DNA of 64,000 nucleotides from Antedon mediterranea (GCF_964355755.1 NC_092677.1:26275175-26339174), one strand, 5' to 3'; positions 30,132-54,264 are shown, numbered from the stretch's first letter. Notes: generated by a model from the letters alone, not told the origin. Numbers and translations: made by a program.

Positions 30132-32633
30132 AATTGAATAGATTTACATATTTTGTATTGTGTTCATATTGATTTTGAAGTCTCTATTTTGAAAACTTTC
30201 TGAAGAAAAGATGAATGTGTATAGGTACCTCATGCAGTACAAAAAGTGATCGCGATAGTCCGCCAATCTTCCGTTTGTTCCAATGTCCTCATAGTTTAAT
30301 GTCTCCAGGTCGTTTTGGTAATATTGTAAGGCGCTGGTTACTGTACATTTATCATTGACAGGTTTGAAGCATACGTCACTTAGGCTGATATTCTTCTTAA
30401 CGCCTTTGTATTCAAATGGTACTTGCATGTTAGTAACGTGCAGTTGCAGTTCCAAAATCTAAAAAGGCAAAATTATAACTTTATAACTTGAAAGATATAT
30501 TTTCCACCTGAAAAAACATTTTATTTTTACATTGTTTGTTGAATATTGTCACGTAATAGATATATATTCGCTTTGACCATAAATTGTATCGAAAAAAAAA
30601 AATTATTTACCTGAAAAAAACTGTAATTTAAAGCAAAAAATAGACAATACATCTTTGAGACTTAACGTCCCATCCAAAGAAGAATATGGTACACAAGTAA
30701 TTGGCACCCACTGAGAGAAAATAGTACGTAAGATTATCTTACCTGTTCTAAAATATCTTTATCCATTACAGGTCCAAATTCGACAGGGCCTTCACTCCAA
30801 CTTTCATAAATCGTAGAGGTTCTGTTTGGCGCAGTGATAATCAACTGCGCAGTCCTATAAAATGGCATAAACGCGTCATCATAGTAGTCCTTCTCCCAAC
30901 GCGATTCACTATCAGGCGCAGACCATAGTTCTACTGGATCCGTTGTAATCACCAATTGTAAATTACCGCAAGAACAAGCTACAATGAAGACAATTGATAG
31001 GAGAATTACAATGTACGGGTGTTTTGCACACCATACACCGAGAGATGTAAACATCTTCTGCAAATAGTCATCAAATATTTTACCACCTTTCTCAAATGTT
31101 CCAATGTCTTCTTGTGTTAATAGCGGTGTTATTTTTTCTGGTGGTGGTACTTTGTACTCAATTTCAGCATCAATTTTAGAGTTTTTTTCCTTAAGTTTGC
31201 TGCGCTCGTGCACAATAAAAAACGCGATAAACATGGATGAAAGACATACGAATACCATTATTATTGTAAAAGTGAATCCAGATATTTCACCCACCTCCCA
31301 TGGTTCTGGAGTCGGTGCTATTGTAGGGTTTCCACTGGAACAAACGAGTGGACAGTCCTGGCAACTGCAGGCTGTTGACGAATTACCAACTGATTCTGTA
31401 CAGGCATAAGTGTACTCGTTTAATGGTTCAATACCTTTGTTAATTTCATCCTCGCTAGCGTCCCCTATTACGTACGTGATTTGGAATGGGGCATATCCAT
31501 TGTCAATAGTACCAAGAAAGCCCAACCAGATTTCAGGCGTACATTGATCAGCTGGCACACCGTCGCACATCAAATCAATCACTTTGATATTGGCGCTCGG
31601 AAACTGAACGTTCTTGCACGAATCAAAAACACCGTCTGCGTAGTCACGTGTCATGAAGTAGTTCATTTCAGCAACTGTACGCGTAGGATGTCCAGCTACG
31701 TCATACGAACGAGTTACGTTCATATAAACAGCCTGGTTCGGGTTACACGTCATTTCACAGTACATATTGACAAAGTTTTCTACACATGCGGGACATCTTT
31801 GCATCGCTTGCTGGATAAATCGAAGACTGACCAGCAACGTCTGAAGCTGATCTGTGGAACAGCACGTCTTTATTGGTCTGGCGGACGCGTATTGTGGACA
31901 TAACTCTTGTAATAGTACTATACCAGTTGGGTCTCGTAACTCTTGTGATGGTCCGTTGTAATCGCAATTTGACCTTAATCCTGTTTCAGGATTAATGCCA
32001 CATTCACCGTACATTATACATGTGTCTGGTTCATGTACTTCACTTGAATATACCTGAAGAAAAAAATGACATAAAGTACCCCTATGTCTATTTTAAGATT
32101 TAGTCGAGCTTTTAAGCCCTGTCTACACTATCAAACCTCAAGTGACAACAAATGTGATAGCCCATATATGGACATGATGATGTCATATCACTACCATCTC
32201 AATCCACACACATAACAATATTTTCTTGATTATATAACTACTTCTTCAGAACAATCGTATGAACAAACCAAATCATGTATAGGAAATATTCAATACAGAC
32301 TTAGAGAAAATAAACCAAGTAATCAAAGGGCGCTTAGTGTCTTCACGTGATATGCTATAACACATAATGTATATAATTTCAAAAGATTATTATTATTATT
32401 ATTATTTATTCAGGCAAAAGATACATTTTACAAAATATAATACAAATCAACAAATTAAACAAACACAACGCAAAAGAAAATATAAAATCAAAGTCACTAG
32501 CTGCCAGGAGGAACGCACAAAAGCAGCCTAAGCCACTGTCACCAATTAGGTGTGTACCTCCAAAAGATCTTACCTTATTCGGACAAAGTAGGAGTATAGA
32601 AAACCACAACGCTAGTTGAATTCTATTACCCAT
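22346..32633 (-). CDS. NPC1L1: Niemann-Pick C1-like 1 type cholesterol transporter (NTD, sterol-sensing domain, Patched/RND fold), 1362 aa, 20 coding exons
   Basis: Exons: 32633-32574, 32053-30743, 30458-30229, 29937-29837, 29381-29206, 28849-28721, 28313-28131, 27918-27804, 27589-27462, 27358-27221, 27054-26965, 26600-26410, 25528-25377, 25199-25067, 24950-24886, 24594-24444, 24111-23880, 23540-23427, 23265-23103, 22572-22346. All GT-AG, frame continuous, 4089 nt. Signal peptide, Cys-rich NTD ([23 protein letters not shown]), [14 protein letters not shown] ([26 protein letters not shown]), [12 protein letters not shown] and [10 protein letters not shown]. Confidence 0.93.
22750..22900. mobile_element. 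Harbinger-type MITE, family C, copy 1
   Basis: Imperfect TIRs agcctgttttcacactagg / ttagtggaaacggcct. Shares ttcgcg(c/g)gaatcgaaagc and aaccaatcaga(a/g)ctcagaaatg with 40553-40912. Confidence 0.6.
28936..29092. mobile_element. MITE family A, copy 5
   Basis: GGCTCTGTCTACACTATCAAACT...AGTTTGATAGTGTAGACAGAGAT with TAA/TAA flanks. Confidence 0.85.
30044..30133. repeat. (GAT)n/(AAT)n microsatellite in an NPC1L1 intron
   Basis: Long run of gatgatgat with interspersed aat. Confidence 0.95.
32115..32197. mobile_element. MITE family A, truncated copy 6
   Basis: agccctgtctacactatcaaac...ggacatgatgatgtcatatcactacc; right half absent. Confidence 0.7.
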
Positions 32634-34739: not shown

Positions 34740-35482
34740 TTATGCGGTAGTTATATCTTTAGTAATACACATTCCACGTGGTTTATCAATATTATCACAG
34801 GTCTCAATAGCACATTTCTCACCCTTCAGATTATTAGATATCTCACCATATTTCTTCCCATTTGCATAATACATCATTATAGCATGTTTAAAGTCGTCCT
34901 TCAATCTTGGTTTATCATCCACGACACTTATGAATATATTGTCTGCAGAATCAACAACCACACCTCTTACAAGATATTGAACTGGCACTGATCTTAGAAA
35001 GGTACCGGAACCATCAAATATTTGTAACCGACCAGTGAGATAAACAACGTGACAGTTACTCCACTTCTATCATCTACTTCTTGACCGTTACGATCTTTCA
35101 GTTTCAACGTAACGATTGCACGTCTGTTGTATTTCTGGAAATTGATGTCTTTAATCTTTGATTTGGTGGCAATTCCAGAAGAGTCCACATACCTGCTAGA
35201 CGAATTTTGAACTCTTCCCGGTGATTCCACACTTCTTCTTCCAGATAAATCCACGGCTTCTAACAACGCCATTCTTGTGTAATCATTTGGAAGCTGATCG
35301 ACATTAATCCTACCGTATTCACGTCTGCATTCCGGACAGGTAAGAACACCATCACGCGTTCGTTGCCACTGGTTTAGGCAGTCCTCGCAGAATGTGTGTT
35401 GGCATGGAAGAACTTTCGGTCTTACAAATGGCCCGTTGTGAACTGAACATTCGGTTAGAGGTTGAATGCTACTCAAATCCAT
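34740..35482 (-). pseudogene. Internally deleted RING-filamin-NHL paralog (intact RING ORF of 162 aa; terminal NHL blades out of frame)
   Basis: 35482-34994 encodes CSVH...CQHTFCEDC...CPEC plus half of the filamin repeat. At about 35033-35055 it joins directly to RLQIFDGSGTFLRSVPVQYLVRGVVVDSADNIF...PRGMCITK in another frame. Roughly 680 bp are missing relative to the 44373 copy. Confidence 0.85.
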
Positions 35483-38378
35483 GTTAGCCTAAGTGGACAA
35501 AATAACAGAACAGGAGCTTTATATTTTTAAACTAAGATTGATGTTGCCAGTACCATAAGATAAAAAAAAAATCTAAAAAGCGAAAATGATTGTGTATAAA
35601 ATTAATCAAATTGATCCGCATATTTATATCATGTCACACACATTACGTAAGCACGATACGTACTAACAGTAAGCTTTCGCATCAGAATGACGAAAGGAGG
35701 GGGTTTTACAATGACGGTTGTCTTCCGTCCTGCTGATAAATGCGTTTCAATTTCGAAACACAAGTGACGGCGGTCAGCAGTAAATGCACGGTAATAAACA
35801 TACGATAACATCTATAGGCCTAAAACAAGTTTTAGTTAATTTTTACTAACAACTAAAAATTCAAAACTAGACCTACAACGTATCAATCGTTTCATAATGA
35901 TCGGCCATTTTATTTTGGACAAGTTCAAAATTACTTGTATTTGTAATTATTCAAAATATAGTAACAATAGTATTTTAATCAACTAATCTAATGATAGTGA
36001 AAACATTTAACACATTTTTATACAGGTTTACAATAAATGGACTACATATTAATACAATCTAATGAAATATAAATACCTACCTTTTATGTTGCTCTTAAAA
36101 CGTTCGTAGCAACTCAGCTGAAGCGAAATTGTTTCTGATTATAAATGATTTATCTGATTGTTGATCTTATGTATAATTTTGATGCAAAGTCCAAATAATA
36201 AAAAATTGTAAATACACTGGAGTTTAGTTTTACACATGAATAATAATTATCAAATTATTATCAAAGAATTATATCAAGATTAGACGGAATAATCCATTAA
36301 AGAGTTTGGCAAACTCACGAGAGCGCACGTGACCCGTGTCACAACAGGTATACGGATACGTTTGCATTTATAGTTTTATTTTATCGGGTCAAAATGATTT
36401 GTTAAAGGGCTAAAGGTAGGAGGTAGGCCTAAGCCTAGCCCTAGCCAACACTTTTTACTTATTTGTCGTTTTCTTTCGAATATTTTGTATACTAAAACCT
36501 CTGAATTTTCTTGAATAATTTATGTTTAAGTTTTGTTTTAAAATGCAATCTGTGCCACGTTTATTATCAACTGAATTTTCAACGAATAAATCTTAAAAGT
36601 GTGAAATACATCCGCACGTCGAAACTCATTGGAAATCGGTATTACGTACGGTATTGATGTCAAGCTACACAGAATGTGTGACGTAGTACATTAATTTTAC
36701 TCATACGTATACGGAGGTTGTCCAAACTATCATTGCTTATCATTTTTACGTTATTTATTGCTTACATGGAATAGTTAATTATTGTTTACTTCATACTAAT
36801 TACATGAAACATAGTTTATTGGGATGCCAGAACATCACTATGCAAATTGAAATTGACGAAATATACTATTGTGTGTAGTTGTATGTAAATAGTCTATTTA
36901 CAACTACACACAACAGTACATTACGTGAATAACATAGTGATTACATGAAATACGTTAATAATAATAACCTGAAAATGTTCATTATTGGTACTTTTAGTTA
37001 TTACATACCAGATATTTACAGTAAAGTATTTGATAGTACAGATGTTACAGGTTATCTCCAATCTTCTTCTTGTATCATGTCTGGTTACATAAGTTATTGA
37101 CCATTGTTCTCCAGAGTTCTTGGCATCAACTGGCAAAACCACATGAATTTCAGACTTCTACCAACCCCACCAACAGAAAATTATTTGTAACCTTGCTCAC
37201 ATCAATTTTACCGTACTTATTTTTTGCCCTAAAAATGAATAAACATGATAAAAAATATTTACAAATTAAATTAATTATTTAATTAACTACACAAAATATT
37301 GAAAAGGTATTGACTGAGCAATTGGTTTTACGAATAAGGCTACTATCTGCATTGCGGAATGCGGACACTGTACCTATAGATACACGGTTTGAAAGACAGA
37401 CCACCATTCAACGCCCTCATTTGCACATCCCGAAACAATATTGTTTGTATAAATAATGATAATACGAGATATTGTGTATGTGAAGTGTTCTAACAGACGA
37501 CAATCTTATAATTTCACATTTTATTTACCGTAGAGAACGCTCATTTTAATCTACAGCCTATCTTTACCCCTAGACATACATACATAGATTCTCGCAATGC
37601 TATAGAATTGGGAGGGTAGTCTTATAAGTTTTAAGAAAATAATAGGGCATTGGCCTTTTTAGTTGTGACATATAATTTTGACGACAGAAACAGGGTGAAG
37701 GCTTTTGCAGAACAACTAAAATAGACATACCTGTCGAGCCAAACAGTGGACCCAAAATGGATTCATCATCGTCATTTGTCGTAGATCTATATATTCGGTA
37801 AATACACACCACAGCCAAGTCGTCATCAAGGAATACATTGTTTAGAAACAAATTGCACAATTTAATAGAGATTATTCCGTAATTCTTAAGCTTGATTTAA
37901 TGATTTTAAATACTTTACAAAGTCCAATATCCAATATTGTAGAATAATAAAATCAATATAATTAACTAATTAATTAATATTTTTTCAAACGATGTCATTT
38001 TTTTTTGTAATTCTAAGCATAATAGTAAATAACGAACAGCCATCAAGCTGTTTTTCTTAAGCTAGAAAAAATATTTATACACTGCAAATATGCTAAATTA
38101 GTATTAATAATAATATTGCTATTAGCCAACCAAGTATAGAATAATTTACCATTAAACAAATGGTTACAATTAAAGTTATGCATTATTTACTATCTAATTA
38201 TTTTTCTTTGGTTATTTTTACTATTCACCAGTTCTATTACTATTAAGTGACATTTATTAATTTCATTTTATTGTATGTGTTTAAATTATTATTATGTTAT
38301 ATTCATTAAATAACTATCTAGCGTCTGTTAAATAATTACTTTGTATTACATTACGAGGCCAACTCCAGACTAGCGAAA

Positions 38379-38790
38379 GCCTTTTATTTTGTCTTTCTGT
38401 CAAATAAACTGAGCAATGTAATTACTATTATTATTTTACATTTTTTTTAAATAAAGAGATGTGTAAAATTATCGTTTCCATAAATTTAAGCAACATGGTA
38501 AATAATGAACAGCCAGCAAATATCTTTTAATGAAGCTAGAAAACCTCCTGAACAAAGTTGTTATTTTTTAAATTAACTAAAGCTTTTTATTTGGTCTTTT
38601 TGTCAAATAAATTGAGCAATGTATTTACTATTATTATTTTACATTTTTTGAAAATAAAGAGATATGTAAAATTATTGTTTTTTTAAATCATTTTTTCCAT
38701 AAATTTAAGCAACATGGTAAATAATGAACAGCCAGCATGTATGTTTTAATGAAATTAGAAAAACTCCTAAACAATGTTATTTTTTAAAAA
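38379..38790. repeat. Tandem duplication of about 200 bp
   Basis: gcttttatt...tgtcaaataaa(c/t)tgagcaatgta...tttccataaatttaagcaacatggtaaataatgaacagccagca is present twice. Confidence 0.8.
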
Positions 38791-38885
38791 CATTATTATC
38801 TGAAAAGATAGGCCTAATATGCCAAATTATTATTAACTAGAAATAGCTTTATTTTGTCTTTCAATTTTGTTTCACTTTCTTTCTT

Positions 38886-41800
38886 TTATTGAGTAATGCT
38901 AGGAGTTAGTTTGTATTTACGTAGGCCAATTCCTATTTCGCTGTCATTTGTAACAATAAGAATGTCTTCTCCGCTACTATATTTAGTAATACACATTCCG
39001 CGTGGTCTTAGAAGATCAAAATCACAATTTTTCTCGAGGTTATTAGATATCTCACCATAAAGTTTTTCATTCGCGTCGTACATCACTACACCATGTTTAA
39101 AGTCGTCCTTCTCTCTTGGACTATCATCAATAACACTTAGGAATATATTGTCTGCCGAATCAACAACCACACCTCTTACAAGATGTTGAACTGGCACTGA
39201 TCTAAGAAAGGTACCGGAACCATCAAATATTTGTAAACGACGGTTGCCACTATCTCCAACAATCCATTCATCTTTGCTATTAATGGCTACAAAATAAGGG
39301 CGCCTAAACTGTCCATCGCCTCTTCCTTCAGAACCAACTTTACGCTTAAATTCACCGTCAATTCCGAAAATGCAAATGCAGCATTGCTCGTAATCTACAA
39401 CTACTATTTCGTCATTTCTTGTTAACGCAATGCCAGTTGGTTTCTTCAAGACTTCTTCACCAAAACGATGACGTACTCGACCATCTGTATCGCATACAAA
39501 CACTTCGGTTTTTCTTCGGTTACCCGCACTTGGCGGATCTTCTGATTTGTCATCCTTATCGATTTTGATTTTGTGGTTATTATCGGTAATGTACAGCAAG
39601 CCTTTGTTCGATATCGCTATCCCGAATGCGTGGAAATCTCCAAATTCAGTTTCTTTGATTTCGAACGACCGAAAATGTTCACCAGATCTGTCGATTACGT
39701 TAACGCAACCCGTACGTTTGTTTGTGACGAAGATTTCGTCACCAAAAGCTGCGACATCATGTGCATGGTCGTGTTTCGGTTCTCCAAATACGCTACTGGG
39801 CTGACGTAACGGTGGAAATTGAATGCTATTTGATGCCACCTTGGCCTAAGTAGAAAAATCAACACCTAAGATAATCAAGTGGCTAGAAAAGTGCAAATTA
39901 TCATTTAAAATGTATAAGGTGGAAGTAGGCCTACGTTTACCTAAATTCAACACGGCACGCCTTTGGGAAAAAATCAAACGAAACGAATAGAAAGAAATCG
40001 TCCATGCATTATTTAAAATAAAGTCATTGTTACTAAGATACCGTACAGTTTTCCAAAAACATAAACCAACCTATGGTGCCAGTAGTAGGCCTACCTTGAA
40101 ATATAAATACTGTATATCATATGCATAATGCGTGTCTTTATACTTTGCCCTGAACGTCCGCTAACAACTAAAGAGAACACTTGCACTTATTTATTGATTG
40201 TATCTCATATTCGAATGCGAAGTCAAAAAGTATAAATAAATTACACCATTGTAGTCTGTTTTTATACGAAGTAATTAATTAAAATCATAGGCTTAAAACC
40301 CTTCAAAATATTTCAAAGGCATAAACCGCCTTCCGTATTATTTTAAAATAAATGTATATTATATCGAGTGTATCGACAGACCGACATAGTGAACTATAGA
40401 GTCGTTGTGATCGATAATGTGATTCAACACTTTGTACTCGAGGAAACCGAAACATTATATGACATTAAAATAGTTAGGCATATGCGTGCGCATTATGCGT
40501 GTTAGTATGACAATATATCGTTCCAGAGAACTAATCATCGCAGATCTTCTTTTCCTGTTTTCCACACAAGGCGAATTTGTTCGCGGGAATCGAAAGCGTC
40601 AGTTTATACGTATGTGTATTCAGGTTTTCTTCTTCCAAAACCTCCTCTCTGCTACCTCTTTGAGTTTTTCGCTTCAGCGAAATTGTAGTTCGAATTGTTT
40701 CAACTTTTTGCGAAGCAAAACATTGCGCAACCAATCAGAGCTCAGAAATGAGTTATGACGCGTTCATGAGCACTCATGCGAATCGAAAAGCTCAGCAGAC
40801 ACGCGATGAAAATCACAGATCCCCACTCTTCTTGTAGTGGTGCAAAGGGTATAGGCCTATACAATTTTTATCTGCGAAACGTTGGATTCATTTGCCTAGT
40901 GGAAAACGGGCTTAAAACTAGTATCTATTATCTTTCTGATAAAATCAATTTTTGAGGACTAAAGTTACTAACCTTTTTTTCGCTCGTTTGTTGTTTTTCA
41001 ACTTCATCCTTGGGTTGTTCTTCTTGTTTCTATAGTAACAAACATGTTATCATTCATGTTAGAAACATATACATTTAATGTCATGAGGAAACAGTAAGAA
41101 ATTAGAATAGTAAGGATCTGAACAAAAGAAAAATCATTGATAAACACGGTTAAAAAATTAATAATCATCATTTAATTTTCTATTTTTCAAATAATTATTA
41201 TAAAAATAAATGTATTGGTCTCATTGGTGAATCCCTAGATGCGTAGGATTAGGGATCATGTTAAGACATTAATATTAATGGGGTTTCTAAGGTAGAACTA
41301 CCGCCCCCACCCCACCCCGGCTCTGATGAATAAATACTCATTTAAAACCCTTGTTTTTTTAAATACCATTCTTGGTTTGTATTGCCGTTAAGTTATGTAA
41401 TCCATAATTATACAAATGCATTAATGGAGTCTAATTAAATATATATGGCATAGAATATATATTTAACCTTCCTTCAAATAATGATCTAAATAGTATGAAC
41501 AAATTCGCCTAGTGGCTTTAAATTAGTTTCCTAGATATCTCGAAAACTAAGTAATCTTAGGTCTTTTTTTTATAGACACTCCTGACATAACATGTAGCTA
41601 ATTATGCTTTGTATTGGTTAAAAATACTGGATTTATTGCATTATATTGATTAAAAATAGCAAGTGGCATTTAACTGATAAAATTTATTTTTGAGGACTAA
41701 AGTTACCAACCATTTTTTTACTATGTAATTGTAGTGTTCCACGTTTGGCTTCGGCGGCTTGTTCTTTCAAGTTTTCCTCTTTCTACAATAAAAAGCATGT

Positions 41801-42505
41801 TATCATTCGTGTGAGAAACATATACATTTAATGTCATGAGAAAACAGTAAGAAATTAGAATAGCAGGGATCTGTAAAAAAAGAAAAATCATTGATAAACA
41901 CAAAATAAGAGTCCTAAAAAACCATATTAGCTAAATACTAAATAATGAGTATGAAATATTATAATCAATAGTGCACTGTGAATCCGTATTTAGTGAAAGT
42001 CTAACCAATGTTAAGGCATTTAATGGGTTCTTTTTCCTAGAAAAGGGGAGGTCAAATTCGTCAGGCTTGCTTGCTTCAAAATAGACAAAATACAATGTGT
42101 ATTTACGTAAACCGAAAAATGAAATTAGATCAATTTACCATAGATCCATCTTTAGAAGATTGTTCAACATTTTTAACTGCAGACCGAATGTTCACAATTT
42201 GGCCAGCCTTCAGTTTGCAGTTCTTCAACAGCTCATCAGAGGCATTTTTTATCTTAGCAAGAGTAACCAGCTGAAAAACAATCAACCAACATACTATATT
42301 CATTTTCGAAAGGAGGATTGTGTAAAAACATTTTAAAAGCACTCAACAAAATGTAATAAATATAGTTTTAAATTAAATGTAAGCAAATGAAAAGGTTAGT
42401 CATTATGATTGTTAATTCACCAACCTCTTCGTCTATTAGGACGTCTATAGTTTCTTCCGTGACGCCTTCGTCTATCATATGTTCATACAGGATTTTGTTT
42501 TCCAT
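38886..42505 (-). CDS. Chimeric SAM-like domain + charged linker + NHL beta-propeller protein, 433 aa, 5 coding exons
   Basis: Exons 42505-42425 (MENKILYEHMIDEGVTEETIDVLIDEE), 42270-42139 (LVTLAKIKNASDELLKNCKLKAGQIVNIRSAVKNVEQSSKDGSM), 41782-41711 (KEENLKEQAAEAKRGTLQLHSKKM), 41029-40973 (KQEEQPKDEVEKQQTSEKK) and 39845-38886 (AKVASNSIQFPPLRQ...NHL repeats). All junctions are phase 0 GT-AG. The ORF-track start at 39839 is GTG, not ATG. The NHL exon is certain; the upstream splicing is inferred. Confidence 0.8.
40553..40912. mobile_element. Harbinger-type MITE, family C, copy 2 (in an intron of the SAM-NHL gene)
   Basis: cctgttttccacacaaggcgaat / attcatttgcctagtggaaaacgggct termini; homologous to 22750-22900. 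Confidence 0.65.
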
Positions 42506-43669
42506 TTTCTATAAGGTTATAGAGCAGCGTTTAATGACTATTTTATCTACTATTTTTGAAAATGTACTTTTGTAATGTAAAATTGACCAGTCTCTGACGT
42601 CACCGGATTACACCTACATTATCTACATTGCGCAGAGTGGTGCTCAAGCGGAGACGATCGATCGCTCACAAATTCTGAAATTCTTTAATTACAGCAGGTT
42701 AACGATATATGATAGGATAGCTTGTTTGACTTTACCAACAATTTCAAGCTAGACCACGAACTTGATTGTTAGACAATACCTAAAAATTGGCAGGACCTTA
42801 ATATGACCATGGCCATTTTCAATTTCACCAGAAATAGGCATAATATAATAAGATTTTGTTACTTACCTTTTGTGTTGCTCTGAATATCCGCCAGCACCAA
42901 CTGAGGCGAAGTTAATTATGCACATTATTGTCATCATTTGCATTGTTAGTATTGACGTACCATAGTTTCTATGTACTAACCAAAGTATATTTCTGAGAAG
43001 AGCATTGTATTATTGCAATCTGTAAAGCTTTTGTAAACTAGTGGCAAACGTAAACATTGATAAAACATCAAATGATCACCTGATATTTGCATAACATATC
43101 GATGTAAGATAAAACGGAAAGCATATTTACAATGCGTGCAAATGAGTTAATTAATAAATAGGCTTACCTAAAATGTCATTTATGTCCAAATAGCCACGGC
43201 AGATGATTAATTTGCGCCGAATACAAAAAGAGCGGAACGTAATGGTCGAATAGAAAAGTGCCGAATGCTAAAAGAGCCGAATAGAACTAATATTTGCTGT
43301 CGAAGGCAGCGGTGGCGTTCCATAGTCGATTGTTTTTTTTTAATTCGACTTATTAAGTCGACATTTCGACTTACTATAAAAAAATATGTCGAATTGTCGA
43401 CATACCGTAGTATATCGAAATTTTGTTATAGTAATAGGATAGTACGTTTACTCATGTGGCATGATTAGGCTTTCGTAGATCACATACGGATAAGATCTGT
43501 AATGCCATTCTCGAGTCAGCCGAAACATCGAAAGTTTAAAAGAAAGAACAGACCACATTACAATCTTGGCTTGCTCAGCCAACAGCCAGTACTCGACTAT
43601 TTAAGAAAGAATCAGAGGAAATCCTTCCAAGAAATTGAATAGAACGTAGCTGATGCTGATTTACAATTA

Positions 43670-43800
43670 TGTTGAATATATTGTCTGCAGAACTGACAAC
43701 ACCTCTTGCGAAATATCGAACTGATCTAAGAAATCGAAATGTACCTGAACCATCAAAGTAAACGATGGTTGTGGCAATCTCACACAATCCAGTCACACCG
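43670..43800 (-). pseudogene. NHL-repeat gene fragment
   Basis: YFDGSGTFRFLRSVRYFARGVVSSADNIF matches the neighbouring paralogs, with indels. Confidence 0.8.
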
Positions 43801-44372
43801 TGGCTAGTTACTGGAACAATACATTATAAATAAAAGAACTTGTAATTTGTTGAGGACGCATTTTTTATTTATTTTTTAATCTTATATATTAATGATTTAA
43901 GAAGCAAATAATTTCATTCTAAGATTTTTGTTCATGCTTTCTTCTATGTTTTTTGTTACTTTAAAACTCAAAATTAAACAAAGACTTATAATTTAGGAAA
44001 ATACGTCTATTTTGCTTTTGAAAGAAGAAATAATTATCTTAAGTTGCCAACTGTGTTTTGCATTAGGCACATACTTATATATATAAATACATTTCCTGAA
44101 TGGGGAAAGAATACATGCAATCTCAACCACAGAAATGAGAAAAAAATACAATATTACAAATAAAAGTTGGATATTATTTGTAGTCGACTATTTTAAGTCT
44201 ACAAGTTACTCTCATGTGACGTGTATAACGATGTAATTTAAATGAATGTCTATCAGTTTGTGTAGAAGATAGTGTATTCGTACCTAGTTCAATCCATTAA
44301 ATTAAAAATTAATTTTTTGCCACTAACACAAGTCGAACACGTTTTAGTCCTCCATGTTTTTTAAACAATTTA

Positions 44373-45743
44373 CTATTTGATCAATTTATATTTATGCAAT
44401 TCCTCTCTGTCACCTGTAACAATAAGAATGTCTTCTCCGCTACCATCTTTAGTGATACACATTCCACGTGGTTGGAAAAGGTCACCTCTGAGATGATCAG
44501 ATACCTCACCATAAAAGTTTCCATTCGAGTCGTACATCATAACAGCATGTTTATAGTTCCTTTTTAACCATGCTCGATCAATAACAACACTGACGAATAT
44601 ATTGTCTGCCGAATCAACAACCACACCTCTTACAAGATGACCAACTGGAACTGGTTTCATAAATCGGACGGTACCAGAATTATCAAATATTTGCAAACGA
44701 CGGTTGTCGCAATCTGAAACAATCCAGTCACCCTTGCTATTAATGGCTACAAACCATGGATGGTTAAACTGTCCATAGTCTTTTCCTTGAGTACAAAATG
44801 TACGTTTAAGTTTACCGTCATTTTCGAACATAAAAAGGCAGCATTGATCGTAATCTACAACTAGTATTTCGTTATTTTTGGTCAATGCAACGCCGTTTGG
44901 TTTCTTCAAGACATCTTTGCCAATACGCTGACGTACTTTGCCACGTGTATCGCATACAAACACTTCGTGGTTGTACATATCGGTTATGTACAACAAGCCT
45001 GTTTTCGATATAGCTATCCCGAATGGTTCGAAAGCGAACATGTTGGTCTCTTTGATTTCGAACGACCGTAGATGTTTACCAGACCGATTGGTTACTACAA
45101 CACAATGACCCCCCTTATCTGTGACAAAGAGTTCCTCCTCAAAAGCTGCAACATCATGTGAATGTTCGTATTTTACTTCTCCAAATACGCTACTGGTTTG
45201 ACGTAACGGTGGAAATATTGTCAACTCTCTTGGCGAGTTCGAGAGGTACGTTCCATTTACAGATGCGTATATCTTGTAAGTACCACTTGAGGTCAGACGG
45301 AACGTATACTCCCGACACGTGTCTTCATTACCATATTCTACAATACCACCACCTGGATAAACCACCTTTATAATAAGGCCTACTCCACTTCTGTCTTCTA
45401 CTGCTTGACCGTTCATGTTCTTCAGTTTAAGCGTAACGGTTGCTCTTGCTTTGTGTTTCTCACATCTTACGTCTTTGATCTTCGATTTGGTGGCGTCAAC
45501 TGGTGAATCTATGGCTTGTAACAAAGCCAACGTTGTACGATCATTTGGAAGATCATGGACGTCGATCCTGCCATACTCATACCTGCATGTTGGGCAAAGT
45601 AGTGATCCTCCAGATGTCTCTTGACATCTTTTTAAACAGTCTTCACAGAATGTATGTTGGCATTCCGGTAGCAGCTTTGGTCTTTCAAATGGTCCCATGT
45701 GAATTGGACATTCGGTTAGAGGTTGAAGGCTATGCAGTGCCAT
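44373..45743 (-). CDS. RING-filamin-NHL protein (TRIM2/3/71-like, without B-box and coiled-coil), putative E3 ubiquitin ligase, 456 aa
   Basis: Single coding exon with a splice acceptor 7 nt before the ATG. RING CPIH...CQHTFCEDC...CPTC; filamin repeat ...SGTYKIYASVNGTYLSNSP; NHL repeats (PFGIAI, KPNGVAL, GQFNHPWFVAINSKGDWIVSDCDNRRLQIFD, PRGMCIT). Confidence 0.93.
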   Translation of the reverse strand: MALHSLQPLTECPIHMGPFERPKLLPECQHTFCEDCLKRCQETSGGSLLCPTCRYEYGRIDVHDLPNDRTTLALLQAIDSPVDATKSKIKDVRCEKHKARATVTLKLKNMNGQAVEDRSGVGLIIKVVYPGGGIVEYGNEDTCREYTFRLTSSGTYKIYASVNGTYLSNSPRELTIFPPLRQTSSVFGEVKYEHSHDVAAFEEELFVTDKGGHCVVVTNRSGKHLRSFEIKETNMFAFEPFGIAISKTGLLYITDMYNHEVFVCDTRGKVRQRIGKDVLKKPNGVALTKNNEILVVDYDQCCLFMFENDGKLKRTFCTQGKDYGQFNHPWFVAINSKGDWIVSDCDNRRLQIFDNSGTVRFMKPVPVGHLVRGVVVDSADNIFVSVVIDRAWLKRNYKHAVMMYDSNGNFYGEVSDHLRGDLFQPRGMCITKDGSGEDILIVTGDREELHKYKLIK

Positions 45744-46872
45744 CTTGTACCTTTAGTTAAGAAAAAAAACATACGAATCAAATGATTTGTCTTAGAAATT
45801 AGGTAGGCCTATACTGGTGATCCAAATGTTGATATACTTAGCTATACGAGATAACCTGTACCCAATATGTTGAAGAGGTGATACTAGGTCAGAGTTTATT
45901 GCCTATGCCTATCACGTGAATAAAATAAATGAAAATAATATGGCTCTAAACGGACTGACCATATAGATATGCATCTACGAACCTAAGTGCGAAAACCAAT
46001 TTTAATCCATACGCTATATGTAGTCCAAAACAGTTTTAATGAAAACACTTTTAACGCACACCTACAATAACAGTCCATCCCGCACGTACAATGGATCGAA
46101 AGTATTGACCACCATTTTATTTCTGATTTCTACCATAACACCAAAGCACAGTACAGTAGATGGAACAGACTGCTCTATTTTTAAGTTTAGTAAAAATGAA
46201 TACGGCTATTTAGTATTTTAAATTTATATGTATAAACATGGTAGTCTACCGGTGGTACATTACCTTTATCCTGAACGTACACATCCGACGAGCTGGCTGC
46301 AGGCTAAGGGTAGGCCTAACGATTGACGGTCTTATCTTGATGTTTGATGTAAGAGCAAAGTTCAGAAATAACAACTATCACAATGGGTACGTATTATCTT
46401 TTTTGGGTATATTACGTCACTATGTACAAATACATTGTACTGTAATAAAACGAATATTTACAGTAGTAGCCTACGTAAAATCATAAACGCGTATATTGCT
46501 TTCTTTAAATTATAAATCAAATATTTCTAAAGAATGATTTGTAATACCACTATGGAAAGATACAGTATTATACAGTAATAATACTTTCGAATACGTATTG
46601 CTTTTTCAGAAGATAAACTAAAAAGTTTGTTAGTTCAAGAAAAACAATACAAAGGTTTCGGAAGACTAAGCGTGGTTCCCATTTTGGAAAACAATTTGCC
46701 GAAACGCAACGACAGAATTTCTTCCAATAGGTCATTTTTTCTTCCGCCTCTGTATGTTTGCGTCACGTACGTACATACGTGCGTCTATACTCACGTACAT
46801 ACGTACGTCTATAAATACGTATGCCACGTGCGTCCATAACTTTATATTGATGTATTTGTTTTTAAATCACTA

Positions 46873-48246
46873 TTAAATCATTTTATATTTGTGCAACGCA
46901 TTACTGTCATCTGTAACTATTAAGATGTGTTCTCCACTATCATCCTCAGTAATACACATTCCACGTGGCCTCAAAAGTTCATCTCTTAGAGATATTTCTC
47001 CATAAAACTTTCCGTTCGCGTGGTACACCATCACCACGTGTTTATAGTTCATTTTTGTCCATCCACTATCAATAACAGAACTGATATAAATCTTGTCTTC
47101 GTGATCAACAACCACACCTCTTACAAGATAGCCAACAGGAATTGATCTAAGAAATCGAAAAGTACCGGAACCATCAAATACTTGTAAACGACGGTTGTTG
47201 CAATCTGAAACAATCCAGTCACCGTTCCCAGTGATAGCTACAAACCATGGATGGTTAAACTGTCCATAATCTTTTCCTCGAGAACCAAATTTTCGTTTAA
47301 ATCTCCCATCATTCTCGAACATGTACAGACAGTAGTCATCATAATCTACAACGAGTATTTCATTATTTTTTGTTAATGAAACGCCATTTGGTTTCTTCAA
47401 GATATCTTTACCAAAACGCTGACGTACTCTGCCACGCGTATCACAAACAAACACTTCGTGGTTGTACATATCGGTTATGTACAGCAAACCTGTGATCGAT
47501 ATGGTTATTCCAAATGGGTCAAAATGTCCCATGTTGGATTCTTTAATTTCGAATGACCGGATTTGTTCACCAGATCTATTCATTACTACAATACAACGAT
47601 TGTATCTGTCTGTGACAAAGATTTCACCATTAAAAGCTGCAATATCATGTGCACCTTTATATTTTGCTTCTCCAAATACGCTACTAGATTGACGTAACGG
47701 TGGAAATATTGTCAATTCTTTTGGAGAGTTCGAGAGGTACATTCCATTTACAGATGCGTATATTTTGTAAGTACCACTCATTGATGGAAGAAACTTATAC
47801 TCATGGCTTGCATTTGTCACCTGACATTGAACTAAATCTCCACTTGGGTTGATTACCTTAACATTTACTCCTCTTCTATCCAAGACTTCTTTACCATCAC
47901 TATCTCTGAGTTTCAGCACGACGGTTGCCCGGGGCTCTTGTTTTTCATACCTTACGTCTTTAATCTTTGATTGAGCTGCATCTGCGGGCGAATCCATTGA
48001 ATCTACAGACGAATCAACAGCCTCTAACAACGCCAACCTTGTATAATCATTTGGAAGTTTACTGACGTCAATTGCAGAATACTCGCGCCTGCATGTTGGA
48101 CAAAGAAGTCCCCCAGAGCTATCTTGACATCGTTTCAAGCAGTCCTCGCAAAATGTATGTTGGCAAGGTAGAACTTTGGGTCTTTCAAATGATTCCATAT
48201 GTATTGGACATTCTGTAAGAGGTTGAATAATATGGAATGACGCCAT
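46873..48246 (-). CDS. RING-filamin-NHL protein paralog, 457 aa
   Basis: Same architecture as 44373-45743; intact ORF; acceptor cttag 8 nt before the ATG. Confidence 0.93.
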   Translation of the reverse strand: MASFHIIQPLTECPIHMESFERPKVLPCQHTFCEDCLKRCQDSSGGLLCPTCRREYSAIDVSKLPNDYTRLALLEAVDSSVDSMDSPADAAQSKIKDVRYEKQEPRATVVLKLRDSDGKEVLDRRGVNVKVINPSGDLVQCQVTNASHEYKFLPSMSGTYKIYASVNGMYLSNSPKELTIFPPLRQSSSVFGEAKYKGAHDIAAFNGEIFVTDRYNRCIVVMNRSGEQIRSFEIKESNMGHFDPFGITISITGLLYITDMYNHEVFVCDTRGRVRQRFGKDILKKPNGVSLTKNNEILVVDYDDYCLYMFENDGRFKRKFGSRGKDYGQFNHPWFVAITGNGDWIVSDCNNRRLQVFDGSGTFRFLRSIPVGYLVRGVVVDHEDKIYISSVIDSGWTKMNYKHVVMVYHANGKFYGEISLRDELLRPRGMCITEDDSGEHILIVTDDSNALHKYKMI

Positions 48247-48996
48247 CTTGTAGCCTAAGTAGAAAAGGCAACATGTAAAACGGTGGTGGTCGAATGTACG
48301 CGGCCGGGATGCAGTTAACTTGCGTTGTGTTTATATTTTAACATCATACGAATATAATAGAGGTATTTGCCTCATCCATGATAATTCAAATAGTTTAGTA
48401 TTGTCGGAGCAAAATTCAATCAATTTAATTCAATTTTGTTTTTAATATATACAATACAATACAAATGAAATCTTTAATAATCAACTAATAATAATATGAG
48501 AAAAAGATTCCCCACTGAATGAATGTTTTGGTTTGATAAAAATATTGTTTCATTTATTATACACAATTTTTAATTGTTTAAAAAAATATATTTCATCAGA
48601 TATACGATCTTTTAAGAATTATATTTTTTTTTAACAATTAAAATTATTAAATCACTGTTTTGTATAATTATAATTCATGACATCCCACATTAACTTCACA
48701 CGCCACCCAGCATAGCGCATTCTCTTCCTGTGCGCTGAGAGAACGATGATTGAATTATACGTATATGCCCAGGGAGGTATAAAAATAATTATTATTTTAT
48801 TTATTTGTATACCTTCATGATATGCCTATCAGTTATAGCCTGCTGTTTTGTATTTTACGATCATTCGGGAAATTACCTCACACGTCTTAATATAATCATT
48901 TCCGATTATGAAAATCAGCATTTCAGGCCCAGCATTTGTGTTGTATCCGACCAATAATAATGATCAGTATAGGCTTACTAACCTGAGTGATCGGCA

Positions 48997-49095
48997 GGCT
49001 TCTAGCGCTGGCCTGTAGCTTGCTTCTAGGCTGCTGGCCTGTAGCTTGCTCCTAGCGCTGGTCTGTAGCTTGCTTTAAGTGCTGGCGTGTAGCTT
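48997..49095. repeat. 24-25 bp minisatellite x4
   Basis: gcttctagcgctggcctgtagctt repeated four times. Confidence 0.85.
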
Positions 49096-49692
49096 ACAAT
49101 TACGGCTGGTTTCTAACGCATTGGTTCATCTCAAAGTCTTCTATTTATAAAAGATGTCGATGTATAACGAAAGCGAACAGGCACAGTATTACACATCGAA
49201 ACCAAAATGTTATGCTTCATTTATTTAACAACAAAATAACAATAGGTTTGCACAATAATAGTCACATACAGTAGCAGACGTGTGCATTCTTACTCTGCAT
49301 ACATTAGTGACGTACCAGGTTCAATCATGCATTAAACATCGGAATCATAACAACTCAGGAAACTAAGCCTATCATTAACATTATTCTACGGCAGTTTGTT
49401 TATATACTAATTTAGTTAGCGGCTTTTTAGGTTAATACATACTGTGTATTGCAGTGACTTATAAATGTCTACGTTAAACAATCTAAAATAATACAATTTA
49501 TTACAGTAGAAAAGTTAATGTAGTAAAATCATTTTAACATGATCACAATGTTACAAACAAGTTTGATTGATCGCCGTGTATTTATGCATTTTTTTAATGG
49601 AAATAATTTCTCTTGTTGCGCAAATAAAATCTATCTTTATTATGAGTGTCCTCATGGAACAAATAAATCATGAGAAAGATTATTTATCATAT

Positions 49693-50811
49693 TTAAATCA
49701 TTTTATATCTATGCAATGCATTACTGTCATCTGTAACTATTAGGATTTGTTGTCCACTATCATCTTCAGTAATACACATTCCACGTGGCCTCAAAAGCTC
49801 ATCTCTTAGAGATATTTCTCCATAAAACTTTCCGTTCGCGTGGTACACCATCACCGCGTGTTTATAACTCATCTTTGACCATCCACTATCAATAACAACA
49901 CTGACGAATATCTTGTCTTCGTGATCAACAATCACACCTCTTACAAGATAGCCAACAGGAATTGATCTAAGAAATCGAAAAGTACCGGAACCATCAAATA
50001 CTTGTAAACGACGGTTGTCGCAATCTGACACAATCCAGTCACCCTTGCTAGTGATTGCTACAAACCATGGATGTTTAAACTGTCCATAGTCTTTTCCCTG
50101 AAAGCCAAATTTTCGTTTAAATCTCCCATCATTCTCGAACATGTACATGCAGCAGTGATCATAATCTACAACGAGTATTTCGTTATTTTTTGTCATTGCA
50201 ATACCATTTGGTTTCTTCAAGACGTCTTTACCAAAACGCTGATGTACGGTACCATCTGAATCGCATACAAACACTTCGTGGTTGTTCATATCTGTTATGT
50301 ACAGCACGCCTGTGTTTGCTATACAGATACCGAATGGGTTGAAAGGTCCCATGTTGGTTTCCTTAATTTCGAACGATCGCAGATGTTCCCCAGACTTATT
50401 GATAACCACAATACGTTGCTTTTCTGTAATGAAGATCTCACCATTAAAAGCTGCGATATCATGCGCACCTTTATAGCTTCCTTGTCCAAATCGTAAACTA
50501 GGCTGATTTAACGGTGGTAAAATTGCTAAATCTTTTGGCGAGTTCCAAAGTTGTACTTCATTCACCAACGCATGGATCTTAAAAGTACCACTCAATGTCG
50601 GACGGAACTCATACTCGTGACTTGTCTCTTTCTTCTGACATTGGACTACACCTCCACCAGGCTTATCTACTCGTATGGTTACTTCTAGGTCTGTAGTTTC
50701 TTCCCCGGCAGAACTTTTGCATTGAACACCAAAGAGTGCACGCCCAAGGCGTTTATCATACCGTGCGTCTGTGATCTTTGATTTTGTAGTATCAACGGAC
50801 GAAACTGACAT
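49693..50811 (-). CDS. Filamin-NHL protein paralog with decayed RING upstream, 372 aa (RING-less gene or recent pseudogene)
   Basis: Intact filamin plus NHL ORF from an ATG at 50811. Upstream 50812-51025 reads IASNQSIEYLTQCSIHMGN*KQTFSKDGLKR...(frameshift)YQLPKDYTK, a RING relic with a stop at 50949-50951 and lost cysteines. Confidence 0.8.
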   Translation of the reverse strand: MSVSSVDTTKSKITDARYDKRLGRALFGVQCKSSAGEETTDLEVTIRVDKPGGGVVQCQKKETSHEYEFRPTLSGTFKIHALVNEVQLWNSPKDLAILPPLNQPSLRFGQGSYKGAHDIAAFNGEIFITEKQRIVVINKSGEHLRSFEIKETNMGPFNPFGICIANTGVLYITDMNNHEVFVCDSDGTVHQRFGKDVLKKPNGIAMTKNNEILVVDYDHCCMYMFENDGRFKRKFGFQGKDYGQFKHPWFVAITSKGDWIVSDCDNRRLQVFDGSGTFRFLRSIPVGYLVRGVIVDHEDKIFVSVVIDSGWSKMSYKHAVMVYHANGKFYGEISLRDELLRPRGMCITEDDSGQQILIVTDDSNALHRYKMI

Positions 50812-51248
50812 TTTGGTATAGTCTTTCGGAAGCTGATATATAGCGTACCTAGTTGTGTCTCAATGTATTTGACAACTTTTTCAGAACTTTTCTTTTTTTC
50901 TGAACGCGTTTCAGAGCGTTTCAAACCGTCTTTGCTAAACGTCTGTTTCTAATTTCCCATGTGAATTGAACATTGTGTAAGATATTCAATACTTTGGTTG
51001 CTTGCAATTTCTTGCTGTTTCAAGCCTAAAAATGTAAAGATATTTTATTTTATATCTCAAATCAACAGTATTTAAGGAACAATGAGTGACCAATAATTCT
51101 AAAATATTCAGCCGATTCTGCAGCTGCCACTAGATACAGCTATCAGACAGACTATTGCAAGTCATCTAGAAACCAATCTAAACGGGTATGACAATTATAT
51201 TACAGAACACAACTTCATTGTTTCGTTCGATAATGAATGAATCAACAG

Positions 51249-51470
51249 TAGCGGAGCTGTAACTTGGTGTTTAACGTGCTTGCCTTCCAATCCCAGGGTT
51301 CAGAGTTTAATCCTTACCTAGTGCATGCCAGGGTTGTAACTCTCACAATCTTTCAACTCCACTCTCTAAGCTTCAAATGAGATTTGGTTTATGCACGATC
51401 AATTATAAAATAGTTTATCCATCTTGTAATTGGCGAGATTGTGCTCGCCGTTGGATGCGTATGAAATTAA
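51249..51470 (+). mobile_element. Degenerate tRNA-derived SINE
   Basis: GGAGCTGTAACTTGGTGTTTAACGTGCTTGCCTTCCAATCCCAGGGTTCAGAGTTTAATCC has tRNA-like A-box and B-box spacing but no intact cloverleaf; right boundary approximate. Confidence 0.5.
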
Positions 51471-51898
51471 AAAACACATTTCTAAAATTCCACTAACGTA
51501 GATTCTAACTCATCTAATGATTAACGACAAACGACCCGGTTTAATCGAAATAGAAAATTGGGATTGTAGATGTTTAGCTTTATTTTCCAACTAATTGAAT
51601 GAATCGGAAATTTTATATAACTAAAACGTTTAATTGGTAATAAAAGCAATTGAATACCAACCTTTGGATAGAAGAAACTAAACCTATTCTGTAAATTTAG
51701 CTTGAAATTCACATAATAAAATAAAATGCACAGCTCTTATGTTATCTTCTGGTGTAAGAGCAAGGTCCACAGTTGAACTAATACTCAGCTTATAAGGTGG
51801 AAGATTATCTGATACGGATATAGGCCTTTAAATAGTACCAGCGGATGCTTTAAATTCAACTATGGAAATGTACTGTCTAATAAACAAATGATCAAAAA

Positions 51899-52006
51899 CT
51901 ACACCTCTTACAAGATACAACAGGAAATTAGAAATCGAAATGTACCGGAACCATCAAATACGTACGTGTAAACAACGGTTGTCGCAATCTGAAACAATCC
52001 AGTCAC
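51899..52006 (-). pseudogene. NHL-repeat gene fragment
   Basis: acacctcttacaagata...gtaccggaaccatcaaata...cggttgtcgcaatctgaaacaatccagtcac is nearly identical to the DWIVSDCDNRRLQVFDGSGTF...LVRGV segment of the paralogs, with indels. Confidence 0.85.
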
Positions 52007-52677
52007 AAAACGTTATTAGAATCAAAGATGCATTTATAATCGTATAAACGTTAGAAACAAAATAAAACATAAAATAAACCGATTCACTGACTGTTTTTAT
52101 TTGCATTTATAACAATTGAATACACGAATACAATAAACGATGCAGGCCTATTGACATATGGGATAAATTGAAAATACAGTGCCTTACTATGATGAGACAA
52201 TGACCGTAAAATGTGCAAGAAATGGTGGATGTTACATTGCCTTATTTTAACAAGGTCATATAAAATGCGTGCTCAATTTAGTGTTTACCGACCAACCGAC
52301 CGACCGACCAACCCACCGACATAGTGAGCTTTAAATTCATCCATTTATCTATACACCTATACATTTTAGTAATAATGCCTACAAGATAATCGTAATACAA
52401 TTGTTATCGTTAAAAACCGTACAATATTCTTATAATTATGAATTTTATAACATATAGGCCTAAAAGTAACATTTTCATAATATTTAAACTTCAAAAGCTC
52501 AAGAGCATATACAAATGCTAAAAACACGAAACTATTTTTGTTGTTTTTTTACACAGCGGACTAAAATAGACAAAATAACAGATAGAAAGGCTATAGCCTA
52601 TACTTATAATAATTCAACAATATAGGCGCTAATTAGGCCTAATGCTGCAGGTCTTTTAGAGAAATGTTGCAGTATTT

Positions 52678-54264
52678 TCAAGAGATTATGCACCTACGGG
52701 AGGCTTCCCTTTCATGTATGTGGAATTCTCCCTTCGAATCAACATAACCTGTAACTTCTTTTTGCTGATCTGTTTCTCCAGATGAAATATGAAATGAAGA
52801 ATTACCCTGACCATAAAGAGATAGTTTTACGTTCTTGTAACTGGTTACTTTGTCAGCCTCCAACTTGGTCATGAACGCTTGTAGTAGTCTTCGTAGTCCA
52901 GCCTGTTCCGTTGTTTGTTCAGCGCCCTCATTTCCACAAAGTTTGAGTATGATGTTTGCAAGTGTACGTTTGTTTATCTCATCGACGCAAAACTGAAAGA
53001 TTAAAACAAAATTTGATTTATTCAACAATCATCAACATTGTTATATCATAGAACAAAAGATTACCGATATTATTTATGCAATAGCTTATGTTTTCTTTCA
53101 AATCATATTTGTTTCTGTTTTCTTTCTCTGAATTATTGTTTTTTTATGTAAATGTTTTGAAATGAAATAAATAAATCTGGAAAAAAAAGAAAGGTTTAAA
53201 GCAACATTAATAAATTATTTTAATGACTGTGAAAATGATTGCTAACATCAGCCGTAGGTATAATAATCTCGGGTTGAAATAAATTGAAACCGTTTTAAAA
53301 CCACAGATTTTAAATCCAGTTAATTCATTTCAATGAACAATAGAAATTATCTTTCATTTGCTTAATAATCACATAAAATACATCGGGTGTCTATGATTAA
53401 TTGCAACAAGTAATCATACTTTTTCGAACAGTCCTAATGTTGTAATGTAAACAAGTTTAAACGTACAAATCAGGTTCGATTGATTATTCTTATTTCTAGT
53501 ACATTTTGTTCACCATGGGTGAAAAAATGGAGAAAACACTGAACAATACCTTTAATTATTACAAATTGAATATATTATGAATAATATTTATTAAAGACCT
53601 ACCATGACTTCTTCGCGGTGTTTATCATTCTGGTGAACCATTACAGTATACTTGACATTCTTGCTGTTAAATGTAACTTGTTCTCCATTCAAGCCACAAA
53701 ATATTAGCTTTAAGTTAGAAAACCCCTTTTCTCGAAACGAACTTGTGAAATATTTCCAATGAGATAGAAGCTTTGTCCAATATTGAACGTCTGGTTCAGA
53801 AGAACTGACACGTGCATCAACAGAAGTGAAGTCTTCAAAAACACGAGACATCCTTCCGTGACTTTCATCGTCTGCAAGACACGAACAATCTTGAAAGTCT
53901 ACGATCAACTATAAAATACAATGTATTTTAAAAAAAAAGTAGTAAATATCTCGTAGTAAAATGACTTAGTTATGCAAGTTTGTACGTCATCATGAGTAAA
54001 AGTGTATTACTTTTATATAAAATAAAAAAAGAGCATTACATTGGTATTTACTCTCCCTTTGTTTATCGTCACTTTCATCGTGTATTCGCCAACAGTCGCT
54101 TCACAGAATGCTGTTTCCGATTTAATAGTACCGCGCGTCTCTCCTGTTTTTGTTTGAAGAAACTCGGCACACTTGCTGGCAAACTGACGTCGTGCATCGG
54201 TTGTTTTGTTTTTAAATAAATTGTTTAAAGCTGATTCAAGTTTGTTCTTACTAAACTCACTCAT
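52678..54264 (-). CDS. Uncharacterised 277-aa protein with C-terminal CaaX box (CIIS)
   Basis: Exons 54264-54052, 53908-53603 and 52992-52678; GT-AG, all phase 0, 834 nt open. Ends REASRRCIIS*. Acceptor 9 nt before the ATG and a likely 5' leader exon with donor GTAAGA at 55194. Confidence 0.8.

What the first reader, a model, noticed from the sequence alone, without database searches (positions are those of the whole stretch)
34740..52006. Birth-and-death cluster of B-box/coiled-coil-less TRIM-NHL genes with combinatorial domain loss
Seen: seven co-oriented copies in about 17 kb: two intact RING-filamin-NHL, one filamin-NHL, one SAM-NHL, one RING plus half filamin, and two fragments. In intact copies only about 25-35 residues separate RING from filamin, and the whole ORF is one exon. 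Known: TRIM2/3/71-class proteins have RING-Bbox-CC-filamin-NHL and dimerise through the coiled-coil; malin has RING-NHL without filamin. Inference: a compact E3 family under rapid turnover, as expected for innate-immune or antiviral sensors, with ligase-dead copies acting as decoys or adaptors.
Basis: partly seen in the sequence, partly recalled or inferred. Interest (0 to 1): 0.8.

Follow-up and report, generated by a model that had tools for sequence, protein, structure and literature searches.

The report
Feather-star TRIM ligases missing coiled coil

Summary
Seven minus-strand copies lie in 34740-52025: two intact RING-filamin-NHL genes (A, B), a filamin-NHL ORF behind a decayed RING (C), a spliced helical-domain-NHL gene (D; 'SAM' is only a lead), one internally deleted copy (E) and two fragments. 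D's exons give a named Antedon mediterranea protein letter for letter. One run shows spliced RNA of A, B and D. The short form also exists in another crinoid, Anneissia. It nests (100/99) inside an echinoderm clade of full RING-B-box-coiled-coil-filamin-NHL genes that share a Cys-to-His change in the RING, so about 190 residues were deleted, as happened separately in malin. Copies group by species, are mosaics (p=0.0005) and diverge between species about three times further than a one-to-one full-length relative. But dN/dS is 0.13-0.61 in every pair and domain, target-face loops are not clearly faster (p=0.08), only six short members were found, and nothing here tests immunity, ligase activity or decoy function. 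Verdict: a real, apparently undescribed architectural variant of class VII TRIM-NHL proteins in a small, fast-turning crinoid cluster; the immune-sensor reading is plausible but unproven.

The parts
51889..52006 (-). F1: broken fragment of NHL blades 4-5
   Evidence: tblastn/blastn to A and C, 84% nt, frameshifted
50812..51026 (-). Decayed RING remnant of copy C (no ATG, in-frame stop, deletion, frameshift, Cys codons changed)
   Evidence: alignment to A scores 114 against a shuffled maximum of 66.5; three-frame translation
49693..50811 (-). C: intact 372-codon filamin-NHL ORF, no RING
   Evidence: dN/dS 0.33-0.50 to A and B; not listed in the protein searches
48983..49040 (-). 5'UTR exon of A (3' end exact, 5' end approximate); intron 48255-48982
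   Evidence: joint 48260/49000 with 35 letters between in run X1, resolved to GT-AG
46873..48246 (-). A: RING(C-H-C-H-C4)-filamin-NHL x6, 457 aa, single coding exon (= P0023)
   Evidence: covered by two X1 contigs
44373..45743 (-). B: RING-filamin-NHL x6, 456 aa, single coding exon (= P0002); 5'UTR intron 45751-46263
   Evidence: joint 45756/46263 at depth 3.6 in X1 (table 5c)
43674..43819 (-). F2: broken fragment of NHL blades 4-5, same stretch as F1
42867..43324 (-). D: non-coding first exon
   Evidence: X1 contig 3 and joint 42508/42867
42139..42505 (-). D coding exons 1-2 (42505-42425, 42270-42139): small helical domain, SAM/HhH-like lead
   Evidence: exons reproduce P0005; helices in the model; Atlas leads
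40973..41782 (-). D coding exons 3-4 (41782-41711, 41029-40973): charged linker, from a duplicated ~220-nt segment
38886..39845 (-). D coding exon 5: NHL propeller with a 22-residue loop insertion; no RING, no filamin
   Evidence: joint 39844/40972
34994..35482 (-). E: intact RING plus half filamin, 162-codon ORF ending after the deletion junction
34740..35032 (-). E tail: last NHL blades, out of frame with the E RING ORF
   Evidence: 73% aa to D

Best explanation
[quoted passage not shown] Shown: the architecture, descent from the His-RING clade, species-specific grouping, mosaic sequence, overall purifying selection, splicing of A, B and D. Inferred: the NHL top face binds the substrate; the filamin repeat is a spacer; the RING keeps the E2-contact Ile and Pro and the linchpin Arg, so it can likely bind E2~Ub. 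With no coiled coil, only 11-12 residues before the first Cys (with a Pro, poorly modelled) and a weakened four-helix interface (TRIM2 F82 to Thr, V89 to Ala; F81 to Tyr in A and E but Arg in B), the RING is predicted to dimerise weakly, like TRIM3, and to be active mainly when several copies cluster on a multivalent target. Tandem duplication, deletion and gene conversion reshuffle the propellers. The biological target is not identified; a defence or stress role is the single most likely, at about one in three.
For: A aligns to Anneissia P0118 (RING-B-box-CC-filamin-NHL) in two blocks, 12-78/14-83 and 84-325/277-520. Tree on filamin+NHL columns only, 26 rows: short forms nest inside full-length echinoderm genes, 100/99, 99/93, 100/100; all 9 RING-bearing rows of that 12-row clade have His as second zinc ligand, seen in 7 of 59 RINGs, all crinoid. 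Model and fold: six-blade propeller, best match TRIM2 NHL, E 4.5e-20; Lin41 filamin-NHL aligned over 380 columns. dN/dS 0.13 in the A-B RING, 0.24-0.50 filamin, 0.32-0.53 whole NHL. Mosaic break near residue 292 of A, p=0.0005; A-C dS 1.13 in filamin, 0.17 in the last half of NHL. GT-AG joints in run X1. TRIM2 residue roles and the need for RING dimers from PMC9732051 (abstract, sections 8 and 13 read), mapped through the fish TRIM2 row.
Against: No activity, substrate or localisation data. A His in place of the second zinc-binding Cys and the F81-to-Arg change in B could impair catalysis. The RING is modelled at pLDDT 50-80 from a 4-sequence alignment. C has two short upstream ATG frames after its acceptor and is absent from the protein searches. 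Spliced evidence comes from one run, as contigs; no listed contig spans D from its first exons to the NHL exon, and one D joint has only 21 letters on its short side. Malin and TRIM32 were not in the tree.
Confidence: 0.5

Rival explanations
1. Innate-immune or antiviral sensors in an arms race, with C and D as decoys or adaptors.
For: Cross-species distance about 0.8-0.9 against 0.25 for the one-to-one full-length pair P0024/P0057 (51-57% versus 82% identity). Repeated domain loss in both species (P0004 lacks filamin, P0147 is NHL only). In run X1 the D contig differs at 13 residues plus a 15-nt in-frame insertion within residues 350-403, covering two top-face loops, against 4 differences in the other 704 nt. 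PMC3503706 (passages read) links tandem TRIM expansions to external aggression as a hypothesis.
Against: All pairwise dN/dS below 1; top-face loops not significantly more variable than bottom loops, p=0.08, interval 0.30-0.82. Only 3 annotated Antedon and 3 Anneissia short members found. The X1 patch shares many bases with B and E, so conversion alone can explain it. No challenge data.
Confidence: 0.3
2. Neutral churn: only A and B (perhaps D) are functional; C, E and the fragments are by-products of unequal crossing-over, and open frames persist through gene conversion.
For: E, F1, F2 are plainly broken; conversion is shown for A-C; C is unannotated; the simulated chance that C's unconverted first 200 codons stay stop-free is 11% at 10% neutral change and 31% at 5%.
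Against: C's 372-codon frame is open while the 215 nt before it carry a lost ATG, a stop and a frameshift; whole-ORF survival 1.6% at 10% change, substitutions only. D is spliced at five canonical introns and keeps dN/dS 0.39-0.53.
Confidence: 0.25
3. RNA-binding post-transcriptional regulators like Brat or LIN-41/TRIM71, with the RING secondary or inactive.
For: NHL folds match Lin41, Brat and Mei-P26; top loops carry 13-15 Lys/Arg and 9-11 aromatics in A-C against 7-9 and 0-1 on the bottom.
Against: Top loops also carry 11-18 acidic residues; best sequence and fold matches are TRIM2/3; the per-blade Arg pattern of the TRIM71 row is not kept; the RING is the most constrained part (dN/dS 0.13).
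Confidence: 0.15

Closest known systems
Class VII / subfamily C TRIM-NHL proteins (TRIM2, TRIM3, TRIM71/LIN-41)
   Same: RING with flanking C-terminal helix and linchpin Arg, filamin repeat, six-blade NHL propeller in the same order; best PDB matches are TRIM2 and TRIM3 NHL.
   Different: No B-box, no coiled coil; His as second zinc ligand; very short N-terminus; single coding exon; not TRIM2/3 orthologues (26% NHL identity; grouping with TRIM2 rejected).
NHLRC1/malin
   Same: TRIM-derived, B-box and coiled coil deleted, RING plus six NHL, single-exon gene (PMC3160408 and PMC3503706, passages read).
   Different: Filamin kept in A, B and P0003; descent from a crinoid/echinoderm clade; tandem and variable, whereas malin is single-copy and reported only in vertebrates and amphioxus. 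Malin itself was not in my tree. Anneissia P0004 has reached the malin layout (RING-NHL) by a further deletion.
Echinoderm His-RING RBCC-filamin-NHL genes (Anneissia XP_033112045 and XP_033127236, Antedon XP_071957291, Diadema XP_071483379)
   Same: C-x2-H RING start; one clade on filamin+NHL columns (100/99); P0118 is 40% identical over 245 residues.
   Different: They keep B-box and coiled coil; the 688-aa pair is one-to-one and 82% identical between the two crinoids.
Anneissia japonica XP_033110588, XP_033110534, XP_033110453 (automatic names 'TRIM2/3-like')
   Same: Same short family; all three on a 1,624,706-nt scaffold by length.
   Different: Group apart from the Antedon copies; different domain losses (filamin-less, NHL-only); no helical-domain fusion seen.

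Membership tests
TRIM (RBCC) family | N-terminal RING domain | tested here: met
   Pfam zf-RING_UBOX/zf-C3HC4 above cut-off in A, B, E; absent in C, D
TRIM (RBCC) family | B-box (the defining domain per PMC2533329, passages read) | tested here: not met
   No B-box hit; RING runs into filamin in one exon within 32-39 residues
TRIM (RBCC) family | Coiled coil | tested here: not met
   About 190 residues of P0118 have no counterpart; no long helix in the model of A
TRIM (RBCC) family | Descent from an RBCC ancestor (TRIM-like in the sense of PMC3503706) | tested here: met
   Nested among full RBCC genes, starred branches; pulling the full-length rows into their own clade rejected (quick tree)
Class VII TRIM-NHL | Six-bladed NHL propeller at the C-terminus | tested here: met
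Class VII TRIM-NHL | Filamin repeat before NHL | tested here: met
   Pfam E 3.4e-5, under cut-off; continuous alignment to the filamin region of P0118 and to Lin41 filamin-NHL
Active RING E3 ligase | E2-contact residues and linchpin Arg | tested here: met
   I15, P50, R53 in A; Arg also in B and E, Lys in Anneissia; TRIM2 Y50 position is Cys in A and B
Active RING E3 ligase | RING dimerisation through flanking helices | tested here: inconclusive
   C-terminal helix 69-77 modelled, N-terminal 1-10 disordered; L86 kept, F82 and V89 positions weakened
Active RING E3 ligase | Ubiquitin transfer | not testable with these tools
   needs an in vitro assay
Malin/NHLRC1 | Only RING plus six NHL | tested here: not met
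   filamin present in A and B
Malin/NHLRC1 | Orthology by tree | not tested
   no malin or TRIM32 sequence was returned for the trees
SAM domain (N-terminus of D) | Profile or fold match to SAM | tested here: inconclusive
   No Pfam SAM hit; AF1548-like_C E 0.0019 under cut-off; Atlas SAM clusters 0.82-0.83 and HhH/NusA/Rad51-N structures TM 0.57-0.73; domain not folded alone
Fast-evolving immune TRIM clusters (e.g. finTRIM, TRIM5) | Positive selection on the target-binding face | tested here: inconclusive
   Partitioned dN/dS 0.52 (0.30-0.82) on top loops, four sequences only, no site model
Fast-evolving immune TRIM clusters (e.g. finTRIM, TRIM5) | Induction by infection | not testable with these tools
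   one contig-level run only

The most novel reading that the evidence does not exclude
Crinoids have turned a TRIM-NHL gene into a variable intracellular sensor set: coiled-coil-free ligases that switch on only when clustered on a repetitive foreign target, whose propeller loops are reshuffled between copies and between individuals by gene conversion, with a RING-less competitor (C) and a copy that replaced the RING by a polymerising SAM-like domain (D) as signalling adaptor.
Probability: 0.15. Interest if true: 0.75.

Novelty: new variant of a known kind. Interest (0 to 1): 0.42.

Why it matters
It is a natural deletion experiment on TRIM ligases. [quoted passage not shown] That makes directly testable whether a TRIM-type RING can work without the dimer scaffold, and whether a C-H-C-H-C4 zinc pattern is catalytic. 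If an immune role were shown, it would add a small conversion-diversified intracellular receptor family in the earliest-branching living echinoderm class (recalled phylogeny). Without that it is a lineage-specific domain rearrangement of modest reach.

Full report
Observation. ORF listing and tblastn of the window find seven NHL-family pieces on the minus strand between 34740 and 52025 and none elsewhere in the 64 kb. From the 5' end of the strand: fragment F1, copy C, copy A, copy B, fragment F2, copy D, copy E. A (457 aa) and B (456 aa) are uninterrupted ORFs with RING, a weak filamin match and NHL repeats, and no B-box or coiled-coil match. The model of A shows a RING with one flanking helix, a disordered linker (69-106 under pLDDT 50), a beta-sandwich at pLDDT about 70 and a 24-strand propeller mostly at 80-95; the best fold matches are TRIM2 NHL and Lin41 filamin-NHL. 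C keeps a decayed RING remnant; E is a single copy with an internal deletion; D is a six-exon gene.

Organism and transcription. D's five coding exons translate letter for letter to P0005, named by its source as Antedon mediterranea XP_071958233, so the window is from a feather star. No listed run is on record as RNA, but run X1 has joints that skip GT-AG introns at all five D introns, and joints at the 5'UTR introns of A and B (resolved). This is one run, contigs only: it shows spliced RNA of A, B and D, not levels. The B joint has depth 3.6, one D joint has a 21-letter side, and no listed contig spans all of D.

Origin. Two searches of 5.8 billion proteins found five close members: three Antedon (A, B, D) and two Anneissia japonica, P0003 (RING-filamin-NHL) and P0004 (RING-NHL). 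The profile search of 1.84 billion representatives added Anneissia P0147 (NHL only, scaffold of the same length), Anneissia P0118 (full RBCC-filamin, NHL cut short) and sea-urchin P0197. A aligns to P0118 in two blocks, leaving its residues 84-276 (B-box and coiled coil) unmatched. In a tree of filamin+NHL columns (26 rows) the short forms nest within P0118, Diadema and the 688-aa crinoid pair, with support 100/100, 99/93 and 100/99. All nine RING-bearing rows of that clade begin the RING with C-x2-H, a trait not used in the tree and found in only 7 of 59 RINGs, all crinoid. So the short form is a deletion derivative of an echinoderm TRIM-NHL clade, older than the Antedon-Anneissia split. PMC3503706 describes the same route for malin (passages); PMC3160408 calls malin the only vertebrate protein with just RING and NHL (passages). 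Malin and TRIM32 were not available for my trees.

Evolution. Antedon copies group together (92/92) and Anneissia copies together (100/100). The full-length 688-aa relative is one-to-one and 82% identical between the species, path 0.25, against 0.8-0.9 for the short family. Among Antedon copies dS is about 1.0-1.1 in RING and filamin but 0.17-0.74 in the propeller, and A is B-like before residue 292 and C-like after (max-chi p=0.0005): gene conversion or unequal crossing-over. On RING columns alone the cross-species pairing B+P0004 is not rejected, so part of the species grouping may be homogenisation. dN/dS is below 1 everywhere: 0.13 for the A-B RING, 0.24-0.50 filamin, 0.32-0.53 whole NHL with upper bootstrap limits 0.46-0.77. 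Top-face loops 0.52, bottom 0.39, strands 0.30; top versus bottom p=0.08. One pointer to variability: X1's contig over the end of D differs at 13 residues plus a 15-nt in-frame insertion in residues 350-403, against 4 differences in the other 704 nt; many of its bases match B or E. C's frame is open for 372 codons behind a remnant with lost ATG, stop and frameshift; simulated survival is 1.6% at 10% neutral change, 11% for the unconverted part: suggestive, not decisive.

Mechanism. From PMC9732051 (abstract and two sections): TRIM RINGs need to dimerise through N- and C-flanking helices; TRIM2 R64, F81 and L86 are essential; TRIM3's RING is monomeric and inactive because its N-terminal segment is unfolded; some TRIMs are switched on by clustering. 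Mapped through fish TRIM2, A keeps R53, Y68 and L73 but has Thr and Ala for F82 and V89 and only 12 residues before the first Cys; B has Arg at the F81 position. I infer weak RING self-association and activity that depends on clustering on a target bound by the propeller. C would compete for the target. D replaces RING and filamin with a small helical domain and a charged linker; SAM is a lead only. None of this is tested, and the target is unknown.

Comparison and verdict. [quoted passage not shown] It is not malin by architecture. The proteins are in databases under automatic 'TRIM2/3-like' names; nine literature searches listed no description of the family (see Tried and rejected for limits). 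The immune inference stays unproven and the selection tests lean against a strong arms race. New variant of a known kind; interest 0.42.

Noticed in passing
window 52678-54263 (-): Three-exon gene just upstream of the cluster (about 54263-54052, 53906-53605, 52992-52678); exons 2 and 3 look alike in pattern, it ends in CIIS (CaaX-like, recalled motif); no Pfam match for the two exons tested.
   Followed up: partly
window 37227-37730 (-): Canonical splice joint in run X1 between D and E with no long ORF; may be a non-coding transcript or a far 5'UTR exon of E.
   Followed up: no
window 39507-39570 (-): D has a 22-residue insertion in a top-face loop. DNA-run depth in bin 39148-39811 is about ten times background while listed point depths nearby are background; the insertion may come from a repeat. 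No match elsewhere in the window.
   Followed up: partly
window 43674-43819 and 51889-52006: F1 and F2 cover the same blade 4-5 stretch, align to each other into their flanks, and each lies upstream of a RING-less copy; E's deletion ends in the same region. Possibly a recombination-prone spot.
   Followed up: partly
window 40936-41147 and 41674-41901: D's linker exons 3 and 4 lie in an 80% identical duplicated segment.
   Followed up: partly
window 30737-32092 (-) and 9017-9886 (-): Neighbours: an NPC1 exon (Pfam NPC1_N) and a PDZ exon that reads like PAR6 (name recalled); useful for synteny.
   Followed up: partly
P0024 and P0057: The conserved full-length 688-aa crinoid relatives have C-A-A/S-C-Q/A at the last RING ligands, lacking the usual Pro and linchpin Arg that the short forms keep.
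   Followed up: no
window 58300-60000 and 63150-64000; 1-2200: AT-rich tandem repeat arrays.
   Followed up: no
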